Virus record (IMG/VR): IMGVR_UViG_3300025011_000030
Location: 21,651-85,650 of that record
Reading direction: 5' to 3' (one strand)
Length of the DNA stretch: 64,000 nucleotides
Origin: a virus
Shown here piece by piece: positions 3,687 to 8,479 of this stretch (positions are counted from its first letter, which is position 1; each line of letters opens with the position of its first letter). The notes under the pieces were generated by a model. The model searched no databases, was not told the origin of the DNA, and saw only the letters and a list, made by a program, of their open reading frames with translations. Made by a program: the position numbers and the translations under genes.

Positions 3687-4385
3687 TTGGTTACCGTGGT
3701 AAATACAGCTGAGTGTAAGAACTCTAATATACATCCATCGTTAAATTTTAGAATAGACGACTATGATTTGCAGTTAGTTATAAGGGCGAAAACTGACGAA
3801 CGGTCGTTTGATAATTTGTTTAACCGACCCAAGTCGCAGAAGATACGTCAGGTTATGGCTCGGAGGTATTGGGCTCCCGGAGCAGACTTTGACGATCTGT
3901 TGCAAATAGCTAACATAGGGTTCTGGTTTGCCGTTCGTGACTTTAACCCTGAAAGGGATACTAAGTTTCTAATTTTTATGAAGATTTGCATAAAAAGACT
4001 TCTTATAACATTCTTAAAGTTTTCAACCAGGCAAAAACAAATGCCGTTAAATTTTTCACGTTCTTACGATGCTTGTATTTACGACGGTTCAACCGAAACA
4101 TTGTTAAATAAAGTTCCAGATTACGATGCAGACCCTATTGCATGTATATTGAAGGTAGCCGACTGTAACGACCTCTTGGTCGTTCTTTCGGAATTCCTTA
4201 GTACTTTAGAATACGATATCCTGATAATGCGGTATATTGAGGGTTTAGATTACGAACAAATTGCACACATTCGGCGGTGCTCGATTAAGCGAGTCAACAA
4301 TGCCCTTCAACGAGTCAAGAAAAAGGCATTAAAGCACAAAGCCAAGGTATTAAATGATTGCTATTTTATACAAAGAGGAAGGTGA
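3687..4385 (+). CDS. SigH-like RNA polymerase sigma factor
   Basis: GADFDDLLQIANIGF..AVRDF, STRQKQMPLN and region 4 YEQIA...KRVNNALQRVKKK resemble Bacillota SigH. Confidence 0.85.
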   Translation: MVTVVNTAECKNSNIHPSLNFRIDDYDLQLVIRAKTDERSFDNLFNRPKSQKIRQVMARRYWAPGADFDDLLQIANIGFWFAVRDFNPERDTKFLIFMKICIKRLLITFLKFSTRQKQMPLNFSRSYDACIYDGSTETLLNKVPDYDADPIACILKVADCNDLLVVLSEFLSTLEYDILIMRYIEGLDYEQIAHIRRCSIKRVNNALQRVKKKALKHKAKVLNDCYFIQRGR

Positions 4386-4815
4386 CTATTACTTGGGTTG
4401 GTTAGCTTTTGTCTGTTCCATATTAGGGTATTATTTCCTCATAAAGAAAAGTCATTGGGTATTCCCTATATGGACAGTATCCAACATTGGATGGGTAGTG
4501 CTTGCGGTTTATAATAAGGATTTACCGCAGTTGGCTTTATTTAGTATTTATATTGTTATCAACTTTTATGGTTGGTACAAGTGGGCACAGGGTTCTACAA
4601 TTATTATCGGTGCGGTTTATCAGAATTCTAAAAATGGCGTATTTTATAGAGTATTGGGAATCGACGGCGAACAAGTTGTTTATATGTGCGAAGATACTCA
4701 ACTATATTCAAGACCTGTTAAAGAGTGGTTCGGTAAAAACCGCAAAGGGGAAGTAAGATTCAAACATGCACCTATTCACAACGATAAAGTTCCAAAAGTT
4801 TGTTCCTGGAACTAA
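4354..4815 (+). CDS. Membrane protein (PnuC-like transmembrane segment) fused to a DUF1653-like domain
   Basis: Three hydrophobic segments ending YGWYKW, then YRVLG..VVY...LYSRPVKEWF...RF. Confidence 0.5.
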   Translation: MIAILYKEEGDYYLGWLAFVCSILGYYFLIKKSHWVFPIWTVSNIGWVVLAVYNKDLPQLALFSIYIVINFYGWYKWAQGSTIIIGAVYQNSKNGVFYRVLGIDGEQVVYMCEDTQLYSRPVKEWFGKNRKGEVRFKHAPIHNDKVPKVCSWN

Positions 4816-4843
4816 ATCAGTTCAACAAAGGGAGTGGTAACTC

Positions 4844-5671
4844 ATAAGTAAGGCAGATACAATTTTTATAAACATGTGTCAGAATATATTAAATAACGGA
4901 GTAACTTCAGAAGGACAAAAGGTGAGGCCGAAATGGAATGACGGAACTCCGGCACATACCGTTAAAATTTTCGGAGTGATAAATCGGTACAACCTTGCAG
5001 AGGAATTTCCAATCACTACACTCAGGCCCACTAATTTAAAAGCTGTAATAGACGAAATACTTTGGATTTGGCAAAAGAAATCGAATAACGTTAATGAACT
5101 TAATACTCGAATTTGGGATAGCTGGGCCGACTTTGACGGTTCAGTAGGTAAGACATACGGTTACCAGCTGGGTATTAAGCATAGATACCTAGAAGGGGTA
5201 TTTGATCAGGTTGACAGGGTATTATACGATTTAAAGCATAATCCTTATAGTAGAAGGATAATAACCAACATGTATAATCACCATGACCTACATGAAATGA
5301 ACTTATATCCATGCTGTTATAGCATGACATTTAATGTTATAGGTGATACATTAAGTGCCATTTTAAATCAGCGATCACAAGATGTGCTAGTCGCTAATAA
5401 TTGGGATGTATGTCACCATGCAATTGTTTTGTTAATGTTTGCACAGGTGACCGGCTTTAAAGTGGGTGAGTTAATTCATGTGATTGCTGATACGCACATT
5501 TACGACAGGCATGTTGAGGCCGTGAAGGAGCTTATTCAGCGAGAAACATATCCTGCACCCAGTTTACTTGTTAACCCTGATGTGAGAAATTTCTACGATT
5601 TTTCAGTTGACGATTTTGTACTATTGAATTACAAAAGTGGTCCTCAAATTAAAATTCCTGTAGCTGTTTAA
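4844..5671 (+). CDS. thyA: Thymidylate synthase-family enzyme with Asp at the Asn177-equivalent position (possible dCMP methylase)
   Basis: EILWIW, YGYQ, SRRI, catalytic PC, QRSQD, DTHIY motifs; probable ATA start at 4844 (first ATG at 4874). Confidence 0.9.
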   Translation: MSKADTIFINMCQNILNNGVTSEGQKVRPKWNDGTPAHTVKIFGVINRYNLAEEFPITTLRPTNLKAVIDEILWIWQKKSNNVNELNTRIWDSWADFDGSVGKTYGYQLGIKHRYLEGVFDQVDRVLYDLKHNPYSRRIITNMYNHHDLHEMNLYPCCYSMTFNVIGDTLSAILNQRSQDVLVANNWDVCHHAIVLLMFAQVTGFKVGELIHVIADTHIYDRHVEAVKELIQRETYPAPSLLVNPDVRNFYDFSVDDFVLLNYKSGPQIKIPVAV

Positions 5672-5684
5672 AGGAGGGTCTGAA

Positions 5685-6173
5685 TTGATATTATTAAGTG
5701 GTATTCAACTAACTCACATGCTGTTGGCTATTGAATCTTCGAAATTAAATACCTTTTGTTATAGAGGTCAGACAGGTGCCGTTATTGTAGCCGAAGATGG
5801 TGCAGTCGTTTTCGCTTATAATCGTATGCCGGTTAGTATTGATCACCGAATGTGTGTACCTGAAAAATGTCCTAGGGAAGGACAGAAACGGGGTGACTGG
5901 TCTAGTCAAAAAGTTTGCCCTGTTATTCACGCTGAAAGAGGTGCTATTTACAATGCAGCGAAGACAGGTTTAAAAACTGCAGGTGCCGCGATGTATTGCA
6001 CATATAAACCGTGTATGGAATGTGCAGTAGCTATCAGTGAGGCTGATATCGAGACTGTATATTTCCTCAAAGATTATAAGCCTGAGGAAGAAAAGGATAC
6101 CTACGATGAAGTAGAAGTGTTCTGCTCGCGAGCCTTAATACGTTTGTATCATGCACAACTACCGAGGTATTAA
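5685..6173 (+). CDS. dCMP deaminase
   Basis: HAE and PCxxC zinc motifs. Confidence 0.85.
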   Translation: MILLSGIQLTHMLLAIESSKLNTFCYRGQTGAVIVAEDGAVVFAYNRMPVSIDHRMCVPEKCPREGQKRGDWSSQKVCPVIHAERGAIYNAAKTGLKTAGAAMYCTYKPCMECAVAISEADIETVYFLKDYKPEEEKDTYDEVEVFCSRALIRLYHAQLPRY

Positions 6174-6180
6174 GTTTCAC

Positions 6181-6209
6181 TTGTATATTATATCATAATA
6201 TGTTACACT
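6181..6209 (+). promoter_or_regulatory. Sigma-A promoter with operator-like spacer
   Basis: TTGTAT-N17-TACACT with extended TG; spacer shared with promoters at 12943, 18624 and 56887. Confidence 0.65.
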
Positions 6210-6265
6210 ATCAGGTAACAGGTTGTAAAACTTGTTACCTGATATTAGTTAGAGGAGGTCAACCA

Positions 6266-6601
6266 ATGACTCAAACAATTAAAATTAACACTAGCTTTTT
6301 AAGTCAGTTAGCACAGGTTAAGTCCGTTGAAACTCCGTCCAGAAGAGCTAAAACAGAACGCACTGTTACGTCGAACAACGCGAGAAAATCTACAGTTATA
6401 ACTGAAAATGATTTCTTGTCTACTCTTACGTTCAACCCTAACTGGCGGGATAAGCCTGAATTATTAGTACCAACTGCCGGGGTATGTATGCGCCCTCCTC
6501 GAAAACGTAACCTTTACTGTGCCGACTGCAAGTATCACGAAGGTTGCACCAACGACGGTAAATGTGAACCGGCAGGTGCACCACCCAAGAAGAGAAAATA
6601 G
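6266..6601 (+). CDS. Hypothetical protein with C-terminal Cys cluster
   Basis: ORF after GGAGGTCAA RBS; CADCKYHEGC. Confidence 0.6.
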   Translation: MTQTIKINTSFLSQLAQVKSVETPSRRAKTERTVTSNNARKSTVITENDFLSTLTFNPNWRDKPELLVPTAGVCMRPPRKRNLYCADCKYHEGCTNDGKCEPAGAPPKKRK

Positions 6602-6610
6602 TATAGAGGT

Positions 6611-6657
6611 AAAATAAGGTCGCCTACTTAAAAATAGGTGACCTTATTTTATATATT
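6611..6657 (+). promoter_or_regulatory. Terminator hairpin overlapping CTTAAAAA/TATATATT promoter motif
   Basis: AAAATAAGGTCGCCTA-cttaaaaa-TAGGTGACCTTATTTT followed by ATATATT. Confidence 0.6.
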
Positions 6658-6700
6658 GAGTGTCGCGAGAAAATTAAAATTTGAAGGGAGTCGTAACTAT

Positions 6701-7276
6701 GTGAGGAAATCTGTATTTCTACTAAGTTTGTTAATTGTTTTAATAGGGTTTCAAAGTTCTTCAACTCCGGAATTACTATCAACACCTGTAGCTCGTAAAA
6801 CTGTTTCGGTTAGTCGCGAGCCTACTAACTATCTAAGTATACCGTTAGAACCTCGTTATCAAGCACTTGTTAAACAATTAAGCGATACGAATGGGTTAGA
6901 CTTTTTGTTGGTGGTAGCTATTGCAGGTGCTGAGACAGGTGAAACGTACGATGTTAATACGGTGGGCGTCACAGGTGATTTGGGTTTATTTCAGCTGAAC
7001 CCGAATTATTGTCAATACTTCGCAGAACAAGCTGAAGTAGTCAATGAACCGTTAGAGGCCGTACCTAATATCAAAATGGCTCTTTGTGAACTGACTCGGT
7101 TAAGGGACTTCTGGCAAGACAAAGGTAAACAGGGAGTTGACTTAGAGAACTGTATTTTGTCTAGCTATAATAAGGGAATTGCTGGGTTTAATCGGTACGG
7201 TTATGCAGTACAGTATATATCCAAAGTAAATCGTGTTCGTACAGCATTAGTAGAGGAGGTTTCAAATGAATCCTAA
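6701..7276 (+). CDS. Secreted or membrane-anchored lytic transglycosylase (SLT domain)
   Basis: N-terminal hydrophobic signal, AIAGAET catalytic Glu, GLFQL, SYNKG. Confidence 0.8.
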   Translation: MRKSVFLLSLLIVLIGFQSSSTPELLSTPVARKTVSVSREPTNYLSIPLEPRYQALVKQLSDTNGLDFLLVVAIAGAETGETYDVNTVGVTGDLGLFQLNPNYCQYFAEQAEVVNEPLEAVPNIKMALCELTRLRDFWQDKGKQGVDLENCILSSYNKGIAGFNRYGYAVQYISKVNRVRTALVEEVSNES

Positions 7277-7914
7277 TTGGTTAAATCTTTGCCCGTCTTG
7301 TAAAAACGCTTGCAATGAGGTTCCTGTTCAAGAATACACTCAGTACGAGTTAGACCAGCCTAAAGCTGTACAGTATCATTTCGGTCGTATGTTAGATAAT
7401 ATAAAGACTCCATTAATTCGCCGAGTTACTGCAGGTACTAGAAACATGTCCGGCATACATATTTAAGGTTCCGGCATCCTCTAGCGGCAAGTATCATCCT
7501 CCATTTAGTTTGGGCCGAGAAGGTTTGATTCGGCATATCAAGGCGGCGGTTAAAATTGCAATAGCTCTTTTGGAGCACCCTTACTATGGGTTCACTCAGT
7601 ACGAAAAAGACTTAATCGTTGGAGGATTGTTAATTCATGACTGCGTCAAATCAGGTTTTGATTATGATGAATCAACTGGTAAGGTGCATACTATTGATGA
7701 GCATCCTATGTTAGTTGAACAGTTGATTAACGTTGACGGTTTAGTTGATGTTGATAAGTTAGTAGTGCAAACACTTGTTCAGGCTGTACGTGGGCATATG
7801 GGCCCTTGGCATAAAAACAAAATGCCAGAGCCTAAAACCCGGTTGGAAAGATTTGTACATCATTGTGATTATATTTGTAGTCGTAAAATCTTTTTGGACT
7901 TTGATTTTTCGTAG
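7266..7914 (+). pseudogene. HD-domain phosphohydrolase, frameshifted near 7420-7435
   Basis: The second frame reads ..LETCPAYIFKVPASSSGKYHP..GLIRH..LLIHD..HMGPW..HHCDY and joins the 7266 ORF. Confidence 0.75.
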
Positions 7915-7930
7915 AGAGGTGACCGAATTA

Positions 7931-8479
7931 ATGCACGTATGTATAGCAGGCCCAATGGGCTCTGGAAAGTCTACCACAGCTAAGATTATACAAGATACTC
8001 TACTGTTTGACGACGTGATACTGTTAAACCAAACGACAGGTATTAAAACTCTTATGGACGAGCTTAACTATCAAAAGTTACCTTCTCGTAAAGTTTATCA
8101 GGACGTTATGGAATATTTTCGTGAACTATGTGGGCCGGATTGTCATTGTAGGAGAACAGTTCAACAAGTAGAGAAGGCTGCCGGTAAGATTTGTGTGGTT
8201 GACGATGTTCGCCAACATAACGAAATGGCTGTATTCAAGGAGCACGGTTTCGTTTCAATTGGTATTACCGCGCCGGATAATTTAAGAGCCAACAGGTTAT
8301 TTAATCGGGACGGGTACGACCAAACCCAGTTTTTTACTCACCCAAAAGAGTACGAGGCTATGCAAGTGGTTAAATCTTGTGATTTCGAAGTTACTAATAA
8401 CGGTTCCATAGCCCAATTAAAAGCACACGTTCGACGTATTTTAAACTTAATTCCCAAACGTGACCTCAGTACATCATGA
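7931..8479 (+). CDS. Deoxynucleoside monophosphate kinase-like P-loop kinase
   Basis: GPMGSGKST, VDDVR.HNE, NNGSI. Confidence 0.75.
   Translation: MHVCIAGPMGSGKSTTAKIIQDTLLFDDVILLNQTTGIKTLMDELNYQKLPSRKVYQDVMEYFRELCGPDCHCRRTVQQVEKAAGKICVVDDVRQHNEMAVFKEHGFVSIGITAPDNLRANRLFNRDGYDQTQFFTHPKEYEAMQVVKSCDFEVTNNGSIAQLKAHVRRILNLIPKRDLSTS

What the first reader, a model, noticed from the sequence alone, without database searches (positions are those of the whole stretch)
4844..8479. ThyA homolog with Asn-to-Asp at the dUMP/dCMP specificity residue, clustered with dCMP deaminase, HD hydrolase and dNMP kinase
Seen: the motif reads QRSQDVLVANNWDVCHHA. Counting from the RSxD motif (E. coli R166-D169), position 177 is Asp (GAT, 5405-5407). 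Established: Asn177 selects dUMP, N177D switches thymidylate synthase towards dCMP methylation, and dCMP hydroxymethylases such as T4 gp42 have Asp there. As I recall, clostridial ThyA reads ANNWNVxQYA, so neighbouring residues (QY to HH) also differ, which argues against a lone sequencing error. Inference: the enzyme may make 5-methyl-dCMP. This could serve genome-wide cytosine modification (with the kinase and HD hydrolase shaping dNTP pools) or an unusual dCMP to m5dCMP to dTMP route through the adjacent deaminase.
Basis: partly seen in the sequence, partly recalled or inferred. Interest (0 to 1): 0.75.

Follow-up and report, generated by a model that had tools for sequence, protein, structure and literature searches.

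The report
Phage dCMP methylase with partner deaminase
An uncultured groundwater phage carries a thymidylate-synthase gene retuned to methylate cytosine nucleotides, followed directly by a deaminase gene, which is a known phage recipe for 5-methylcytosine DNA and for making thymidylate from 5-methyl-dCMP.

Summary
The ThyA homologue at 4844-5671 reads QRSQDVLVANNWDVCHHA, with GAT at 5405-5407 at the E. coli Asn177 position. Contigs from four runs in two studies carry the same sequence.

Of 119 nearest proteins (71-77% identical, mostly Clostridia ThyA), 118 have Asn. About 50 viral relatives also have Asn.

Five sequences carry Asp. They form one clade even with the trait columns masked, and they evolve under strong purifying selection. 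Besides N177D they share changes at EcTS positions 93, 147, 180, 181, 184 and 186. The Y181H change also occurs in the unrelated Xp12 enzyme.

All four Asp-type loci with flanking DNA have a dCMP-deaminase gene 4-19 nt downstream. Only one of about 50 Asn-type loci has one within 4 kb.

The enzyme keeps Leu143, Trp83 and the C-terminal tail, so it looks like a methylase, not a hydroxymethylase.

This arrangement is already described for Xp12 and in the MetaGPA work of Yang et al. (2021, 2024). This scan has also noted it in at least 16 other genomes. It is therefore a new member of a known kind, with an independent, recent origin from a clostridial ThyA.

The role of the HD protein is unproven and its gene has a frame break. 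No product or DNA base was measured.

The parts
4844..5671 (+). TS-family gene, predicted dCMP C5-methyltransferase (5mdCMP synthase). It probably starts at ATA 4844; the first ATG is at 4874.
   Evidence: Pfam PF00303 E 2e-82. 45% identical to B. subtilis ThyA structures. Asp at EcTS 177. Clade-specific changes at EcTS 93, 147, 180, 181, 184 and 186. dN/dS about 0.04-0.06.
5405..5407 (+). GAT codon for Asp at the E. coli Asn177 (base-specificity) position
   Evidence: Identical in contigs of four runs.
5685..6173 (+). dCMP/CDA-family zinc deaminase, starting 14 nt after the TS stop. Predicted to act on 5-methyl-dC nucleotides to give dT nucleotides.
   Evidence: Pfam PF00383 1e-17 and PHROG 174. 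Best PDB match is the cyanophage S-TIM5 dCMP deaminase 4p9c. Homologues sit directly downstream of every Asp-type TS.
7266..7466 (+). 66-aa ORF with a strong Shine-Dalgarno site. Its C-terminal end is collinear with the N-terminal helix of full-length HD homologues but lies in another frame.
   Evidence: profile positions 8-23; the score is not significant.
7417..7914 (+). HD-domain phosphohydrolase-fold protein (PHROG 5889). The open frame has no ATG, GTG or TTG before TTG 7510. Function unproven.
   Evidence: Profile of 79 homologues E 7e-56 over positions 26-180. Homologues hit Pfam HD. AF2 model pLDDT 92; best PDB match is the YhaM HD exonuclease at E 1e-3, then SAMHD1.
7934..8479 (+). P-loop dNMP kinase, candidate 5mdCMP kinase
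   Evidence: PHROG 139 E 1e-19, Pfam AAA_18, weak DNMK hit.

Best explanation
The gene at 4844-5671 encodes a thymidylate-synthase-fold enzyme that a phage lineage acquired from a clostridial (Acetivibrio-like) thyA. It was converted by N177D and about six accompanying substitutions into a deoxycytidylate C5-methyltransferase. The predicted reaction is dCMP + CH2-THF to 5-methyl-dCMP + DHF. The deaminase gene that starts 14 nt after its stop codon converts part of the 5-methyl-dC nucleotide pool to dT nucleotides. This gives the phage thymidylate without dUMP or a canonical TS. The phage dNMP kinase and host NDP kinase take the rest to 5-methyl-dCTP, which is built into phage DNA in place of some or all cytosine. 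What is shown: the residues, their conservation, the single origin, purifying selection and the gene linkage. What is inferred: the substrate, the product, the deaminase preference and the DNA composition.
For: Asp sits at EcTS 177 while the catalytic set is kept: E58, Y94, C146, R166, S167, D169, H207 and Y209 are invariant in alignment A4. N177D alone turns TS into a dCMP methylase (Liu and Santi 1992, and Hardy and Nalivaika 1992, as cited in PMC8670742). The Asp clade of five sequences is one branch with SH-aLRT 99 when the trait columns are masked. Its dN/dS is 0.04-0.06. Methylase features are kept rather than hydroxymethylase features: Leu at 143 (Asp in T4 gp42 and SPO1 gp29), Trp83 (Val in T4) and an intact C-terminal IPVAV tail (criteria from PMC6400193). 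Tyr181 to His is shared with the independent Xp12 5mdCMP synthase. A deaminase lies directly downstream in 4 of 4 Asp-type loci, against 1 of about 50 Asn-type viral relatives. Xp12 has the same TS-deaminase order. The published statistics are 70% against 6%, 5 of 7 such TS made 5mdCMP, and the in-cis deaminases are 5mC-selective. The phage has no second TS and no ThyX. A dNMP kinase lies 2.3 kb downstream.
Against: There is no biochemical or DNA-composition measurement. No recognisable dCTPase was found: no MazG/PRA-PH, and the HD protein is of unknown function with a broken or oddly started frame. Complete replacement of C is therefore not supported. The phage has no DHFR, whereas all Pamexvirus phages have one. 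Two of the seven tested TS homologues in the preprint did not give 5mdCMP. Cys at position 147 also occurs in some Asn-type relatives, so it is not diagnostic.
Confidence: 0.68

Rival explanations
1. The pair is only a thymidylate route: TS(Asp) and the deaminase together make dTMP from dCMP through 5mdCMP, and little or no 5-methylcytosine enters the DNA.
For: The phage has no canonical TS or ThyX. TS and deaminase are tightly coupled, with a 14-nt gap. No dCTPase was recognised that could exclude dCTP. Earlier notes of this scan propose the same route for CPR bacteria (untested here).
Against: A dNMP kinase sits in the same gene block. The characterised phages with this module (Xp12, PaMx74) have 5mC DNA. 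Relatives L006 and L007 add a MazG pyrophosphohydrolase next to the pair.
Confidence: 0.15
2. The enzyme is a dCMP hydroxymethylase of the T4 gp42 type, making 5hmdCMP.
For: It has Asp at position 177, as gp42 does. The clade-specific Ala to Thr change at EcTS 93 puts a hydroxyl where T4 dCH has a functionally important Ser.
Against: It lacks the water-activating Asp at EcTS 143 and keeps Leu there. It also keeps Trp83 and the full C-terminal tail that seals the site for hydride transfer. It is 74-77% identical to ordinary ThyA. No glucosyltransferase was looked for or seen in the region.
Confidence: 0.08
3. The enzyme is still a dUMP-using or dual-specificity thymidylate synthase, or it is inactive, and the Asp has no functional meaning.
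For: The overall sequence is very close to canonical ThyA. No assay exists.
Against: Asn is invariant in 118 of 118 close relatives and in about 50 viral relatives. The Asp comes with six co-conserved changes. The clade is under strong purifying selection and is linked to a deaminase that Asn-type genes lack.
Confidence: 0.07

Closest known systems
Xanthomonas phage Xp12 (Pamexvirus/Bosavirus) 5mdCMP synthase module: TS homologue with Asp177, dCMP deaminase, DHFR and a HAD hydrolase
   Same: Both have Asp at EcTS 177 and His at 181. The deaminase lies immediately downstream of the TS on the same strand, and a nucleotide hydrolase gene is nearby.
   Different: The two TS are not orthologues: each is about 30-34% identical to E. 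coli ThyA. Xp12 has lost the C-terminal tail and has Asn143, Phe83 and Pro147, whereas the window enzyme keeps Leu143, Trp83 and the tail and has Cys147. The deaminases are 26% identical. The window phage has no DHFR and has an HD protein and a kinase instead of a HAD hydrolase.
MetaGPA-defined TS(Asp177) plus in-cis 5mC-selective deaminase (mSCD) loci (Yang et al., eLife 2021, PMC8670742; bioRxiv 10.1101/2024.12.05.627091)
   Same: The diagnostic rule is the same: PF00303 with Asp at N177, next to PF00383. Position 147 also differs. That study mined IMG/VR with this rule, and this record is an IMG/VR contig.
   Different: I could not check whether this contig is in their set. Here the TS lineage is a clostridial-ThyA offshoot, and MazG/PRA-PH is absent from the window phage although present in its relatives L006 and L007.
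Engineered N177D (E. coli) and N229D (L. casei) thymidylate synthases
   Same: A canonical TS scaffold with a single Asn to Asp change becomes a dCMP methylase. The window enzyme is in effect a natural version on a 75%-identical scaffold.
   Different: The natural clade adds co-conserved changes at positions 93, 147, 180, 181, 184 and 186. These presumably tune activity but are untested.
T4 gp42 dCMP hydroxymethylase
   Same: It has the TS fold, Cys nucleophile and Asp at the specificity position.
   Different: gp42 has Asp at EcTS 143, Val at 83 and no C-terminal tail. The window enzyme has none of these.

Membership tests
Thymidylate synthase superfamily (Pfam PF00303) | Profile match over the full length, plus the catalytic Cys146, Arg166, Ser167, Asp169, Glu58, Tyr94, His207 and Tyr209 | tested here: met
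   E 2e-82 over profile positions 6-266. These residues are invariant in alignment A4.
Canonical dUMP-specific ThyA (EC 2.1.1.45) | Asn at EcTS position 177, which hydrogen-bonds O4/N3 of uracil | tested here: not met
   Asp is encoded by GAT 5405-5407. Asn is present in 118 of 118 nearest Asn-type homologues.
TS-family dCMP C5-methyltransferase (Xp12 type) | Asp at EcTS 177 on an otherwise intact TS active site | tested here: met
TS-family dCMP C5-methyltransferase (Xp12 type) | Product is 5-methyl-dCMP, with DHF released | not testable with these tools
   This needs an enzyme assay or in vivo LC-MS. The retained Leu143, Trp83 and C-terminal tail favour hydride transfer.
TS-family dCMP C5-methyltransferase (Xp12 type) | Common descent with the Xp12/PaMx74 enzyme | tested here: not met
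   The clade nests among clostridial ThyA at 71-77% identity, and the Xp12 TS is distant. It works like the Xp12 enzyme but arose independently.
dCMP hydroxymethylase (T4 gp42 type) | Asp at the EcTS 143 position, no C-terminal tail, and Trp83 replaced | tested here: not met
   The window enzyme has Leu143, Trp83 and the IPVAV tail (criteria from PMC6400193).
5mC-selective deoxycytidylate-type deaminases (mSCD) | CDA fold with HAE and PCxxC zinc motifs, encoded in cis with an Asp177 TS | tested here: met
   Pfam PF00383. The motifs are conserved. The adjacency holds in 4 of 4 Asp-type loci.
5mC-selective deoxycytidylate-type deaminases (mSCD) | Preference for 5mC over C substrates | not testable with these tools
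   The preprint describes the trait as polyphyletic, and no sequence rule was seen in the sections read.
HD-domain phosphohydrolases | The H...HD...D metal-binding set | tested here: met
   H74, D75, H96, H127, H148 and D151 are invariant in alignment A3. Homologues hit PF01966. The substrate is unknown.

The most novel reading that the evidence does not exclude
This single 85.6-kb phage may combine two different non-canonical base systems. One is pre-replicative replacement of cytosine by 5-methylcytosine through the TS(Asp), deaminase and kinase set. The other is 7-deazaguanine modification of G, because a full preQ0 pathway (FolE, QueD, QueE, QueC) lies 14-16 kb upstream. In addition, the His180/His181 pair, one helical turn after Asp177 and shared at position 181 with Xp12, may be a convergent second-shell determinant of dCMP methylase activity.
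Probability: 0.35. Interest if true: 0.6.

Novelty: new member of a known kind. Interest (0 to 1): 0.4.

Why it matters
This case adds an independently evolved and very recent example of a TS-to-dCMP-methylase switch. It is 74-77% identical to ordinary clostridial ThyA, and only about seven positions that are otherwise near-invariant are changed. That makes it a compact natural experiment for what, beyond N177D, is needed for an efficient dCMP methylase; Tyr181 to His recurs in Xp12. It also predicts 5mC-containing DNA, possibly alongside deazaguanine, in an uncultured groundwater and sediment phage of a Firmicutes-like host. That matters for restriction evasion and for interpreting metagenomic methylation signals. 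The partner deaminase is a candidate 5mC-selective enzyme of the kind now used for methylome sequencing.

Tried and rejected
- **Deaminase homologue search:** the word-based protein search returned only the query itself, so it was uninformative.
- **Degenerate motif scans:** the metagenome scan returned four hits. Two (L008, L011) re-found the L006 and L007 contigs, L009 was a new Asp-type locus, and L010 was a chance hit. The genome-contig scan returned only one chance hit (L012, a high-GC Acidimicrobiaceae frame). No bacterial genome with this clade's motif was found.
- **The search for related loci with the nine-protein alignment A4:** it failed for lack of conserved stretches. Alignment A1 worked instead.
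- **First tree run:** it gave no answer and was repeated.
- **Pfam TGT in the phage:** it found nothing, so the DpdA claim in earlier notes is not verified here. Only the preQ0 genes are.
- **HD protein:** no sequence match in the PDB, and the fold search gave only generic HD folds. I do not assign it a dCTPase role. The HD protein of the second complete Asp-type phage belongs to a different subtype, so co-occurrence is not an argument.
- **Laid runs:** they were contigs, so they show sequence identity only, not base modification or depth.
- **Cys147 as a marker:** rejected, because several Asn-type relatives also have Cys there.
Full report
**Context**

The window is bases 21651-85650 of an 85,650-bp IMG/VR virus record that CheckV rates as complete. 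Contigs holding this stretch come from groundwater and sediment metagenomes.

**Observation**

The + strand ORF ending at 5671 is a full-length thymidylate synthase homologue (Pfam PF00303, E 2e-82). It is 45% identical to the B. subtilis ThyA crystal-structure sequence (E 1e-69). It reads QRSQDVLVANNWDVCHHA, and 5405-5407 is GAT. In the HMMER alignment to B. subtilis ThyA and the MAFFT alignment with E. coli ThyA, this Asp falls on E. coli Asn177. Contigs from four runs in two studies match the window exactly across this codon, with no substitutions or indels. These samples may include the source of the window, so they are only weak independent support. Stronger support comes from homologues that carry the same residues (next section).

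**How unusual is the Asp, and is it conserved?**

- The 119 nearest proteins in the 5.8-billion-protein collection are 71-77% identical. Many are named ThyA of Acetivibrio, Hungateiclostridium or Clostridia.
Only P0002 shares Asp.
- A degenerate DNA scan for NNWD(V/I)xHH found three more carriers: L006 on a complete 69.9-kb viral contig, L007 and L009.
- About 50 further viral relatives all have Asn-Gln-Tyr at these positions, apart from four distant ones that my pattern did not align reliably.
- The five Asp-type sequences form one branch. SH-like support is 99. SH-aLRT is 99 with the seven trait columns masked. The branch is nested within the clostridial ThyA radiation.
- Within the clade, synonymous sites are saturated while dN is 0.03-0.14. 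Where measurable, dN/dS is 0.04-0.06. The gene is therefore maintained by selection.

The clade differs from residues that are at least 99% conserved in the 118 Asn-type neighbours at seven positions:

| EcTS position | Asn-type neighbours | Asp clade |
|---|---|---|
| 93 | Ala | Thr |
| 147 | Ala | Cys |
| 177 | Asn | Asp |
| 180 | Gln | His |
| 181 | Tyr | His |
| 184 | Leu | Val |
| 186 | His | Leu or Ile |

Cys147 also occurs in some Asn-type relatives, so it is not diagnostic. Positions 177 and 147 are the two positions that MetaGPA ranked highest for association with cytosine-modified viral contigs (PMC8670742).

**Methyl or hydroxymethyl?**

I aligned the window enzyme with E. coli ThyA, Xp12 TS (5mdCMP synthase), T4 gp42 (dCMP hydroxymethylase) and SPO1 gp29 (dUMP hydroxymethylase), all fetched by reference. 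The T4 dCH structure paper names the hydroxymethylase signatures (PMC6400193). They are no C-terminal tail, Trp83 replaced by Val, and Leu143 replaced by a water-activating Asp.

| Feature (EcTS numbering) | Window enzyme | Xp12 TS | T4 gp42 | SPO1 gp29 |
|---|---|---|---|---|
| Position 143 | Leu | Asn | Asp | Asp |
| Position 83 | Trp | Phe | Val | Phe |
| Position 177 | Asp | Asp | Asp | Asn |
| Position 181 | His | His | Gln | not read |
| C-terminal tail | kept (IPVAV) | absent | absent | not read |

The window enzyme also keeps Asp169. It is in effect a natural N177D thymidylate synthase. The engineered equivalents are dCMP methylases (papers cited). Position 181 is His in both Xp12 and this clade, against Tyr in ordinary TS, which is a convergent change. 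By my recollection of the TS structure, position 181 lies one helical turn after 177. From that I infer that His181 may partner the Asp carboxylate.

**Linkage to the deaminase**

A CDA/dCMP-deaminase-family gene starts 14 nt after the TS stop codon. Its evidence is PF00383 at 1e-17, HAE and PCxxC motifs, and the cyanophage dCMP deaminase 4p9c as best PDB match. In L006, L007 and L009 a homologous deaminase follows the Asp-type TS within 17-19 nt. These deaminases are only 36-38% identical to the window's, whereas the TS proteins are 77-80% identical.

Among about 50 Asn-type viral relatives with up to 4 to 8 kb of flank on each side (less where a contig ends), a CDA-motif ORF appears only once, 2.2 kb away. 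Xp12 has the order HAD hydrolase, TS, dCMP deaminase, DHFR.

This matches published results (bioRxiv 10.1101/2024.12.05.627091):
- 70% of deaminases on cytosine-modified contigs lie within 3 kb of a TS, against 6% on unmodified contigs.
- Five of seven such TS made 5mdCMP in vivo.
- Many of the in-cis deaminases prefer 5mC, which points to dTMP synthesis from 5mdCMP.

The window phage has no second TS, no ThyX, no DHFR, no MazG/PRA-PH and no C5 DNA methyltransferase.

**Other genes named in the finding**

- The kinase at 7934-8479 matches phage dNMP kinases (PHROG 139, 1e-19). It is a reasonable 5mdCMP kinase by analogy with T4 gp1, but this is not tested.
- The HD protein is less clear. The conserved family region, including a PASSSGKYHP motif, occupies the open frame 7417-7911 (profile E 7e-56). 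That frame has no ATG, GTG or TTG before TTG 7510 and no Shine-Dalgarno site.
- The upstream 66-codon ORF (7266-7466) has a strong Shine-Dalgarno site and is one base out of frame. Its end is collinear with the family's N-terminal helix, though the score is not significant.
- This frame arrangement is identical in independent contigs. It is therefore a real frameshift, an odd start, or programmed +1 frameshifting.
- The AF2 model is confident (pLDDT 92). It resembles only generic HD enzymes: the YhaM exonuclease at E 1e-3, then SAMHD1.
- Its phage homologues are mostly in SPO1/CP-51-type phages. SPO1 replaces T by 5-hydroxymethyluracil (consistent with its gp29 above), and by my recollection CP-51 does too. 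This is suggestive but confounded by phylogeny.
- I therefore do not assign the HD protein a dCTPase role. Relatives L006 and L007 carry DUF3310 and a small MazG pyrophosphohydrolase right after the deaminase, as in many published loci.

**Conclusion**

However, the system is a known kind, seen in Xp12 and the MetaGPA loci. Earlier notes of this scan record the same kind in at least 16 other genomes (not checked here).

Three points are specific to this case:
- It has an independent, recent origin from clostridial ThyA with a short list of accompanying substitutions.
- It has an HD-plus-kinase context without DHFR or MazG.
- A complete preQ0 pathway (QueD, QueE, FolE, QueC) sits at G000:C1:5675-8075 of the same phage. 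The virion DNA may therefore carry two kinds of non-canonical base.

The extent of cytosine replacement, the product of the enzyme and the deaminase preference all remain inferences.

Noticed in passing
window 4838-4876; L006, L007, L009 upstream of their MCQ start: All Asp-type TS genes have an Ile codon (ATA in the window, ATT in the others) exactly where homologues have the Met of MSKAD..IFI. The ten following codons are conserved at protein level with synonymous differences. A GGAG-type Shine-Dalgarno site sits 7-11 nt before that Ile codon, not before the ATG ten codons later. This points to a conserved non-ATG (ATA/ATT) start.
   Followed up: partly
window 7266-7520: The conserved N-terminal part of the HD gene is in a frame with no standard start. 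It is +1 relative to an upstream 66-codon ORF that has a strong Shine-Dalgarno site. The arrangement is identical in contigs from several runs. It could be a frameshifted gene, programmed +1 frameshifting, or an odd start.
   Followed up: partly
G000:C1:5675-8075 (L079 675-3075), 14-16 kb upstream of the window start: QueD (PTPS), a radical-SAM QueE-like protein, GTP cyclohydrolase I and QueC lie in a row, followed by a GIY-YIG endonuclease, a DUF6884-like protein and a SAM methyltransferase. This is a preQ0/7-deazaguanine pathway in the same phage. Three ORFs of 257 to 297 aa after it have no Pfam hit, and Pfam TGT finds nothing in the genome.
   Followed up: partly
phage records (SPO1 gp32.6, SP82G, SP8, CP-51, JL, Shanette, Clostridium phage c-st): The HD family PHROG 5889 is found among isolated phages almost only in SPO1/CP-51-type phages. 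SPO1 replaces thymine by 5-hydroxymethyluracil, and by my recollection CP-51 does too. Its function there appears to be unassigned.
   Followed up: no
L006 2191-3433, 7050-8477 and 8917-9318: The second complete Asp-type phage carries DUF3310 and MazG right after the deaminase. It also has a 474-aa C5 cytosine DNA methyltransferase and a weak nucleoside 2-deoxyribosyltransferase-like protein nearby. A DNA C5-methyltransferase is unexpected if cytosine is already fully replaced by 5mC.
   Followed up: no
window 4354-4815: The 153-aa protein just upstream of the TS gene matches only the first 70 positions of the PnuC/NMN-transporter family (E 6e-8). It may be a truncated or small membrane protein of that family, and its role is unknown.
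   Followed up: no
L063, L064, L070, L071 (viral contigs): Four more distant viral TS relatives gave Gly and other residues at my fixed-spacing readout of position 177. This is probably an indel in the loop, but they were not aligned properly.
   Followed up: no
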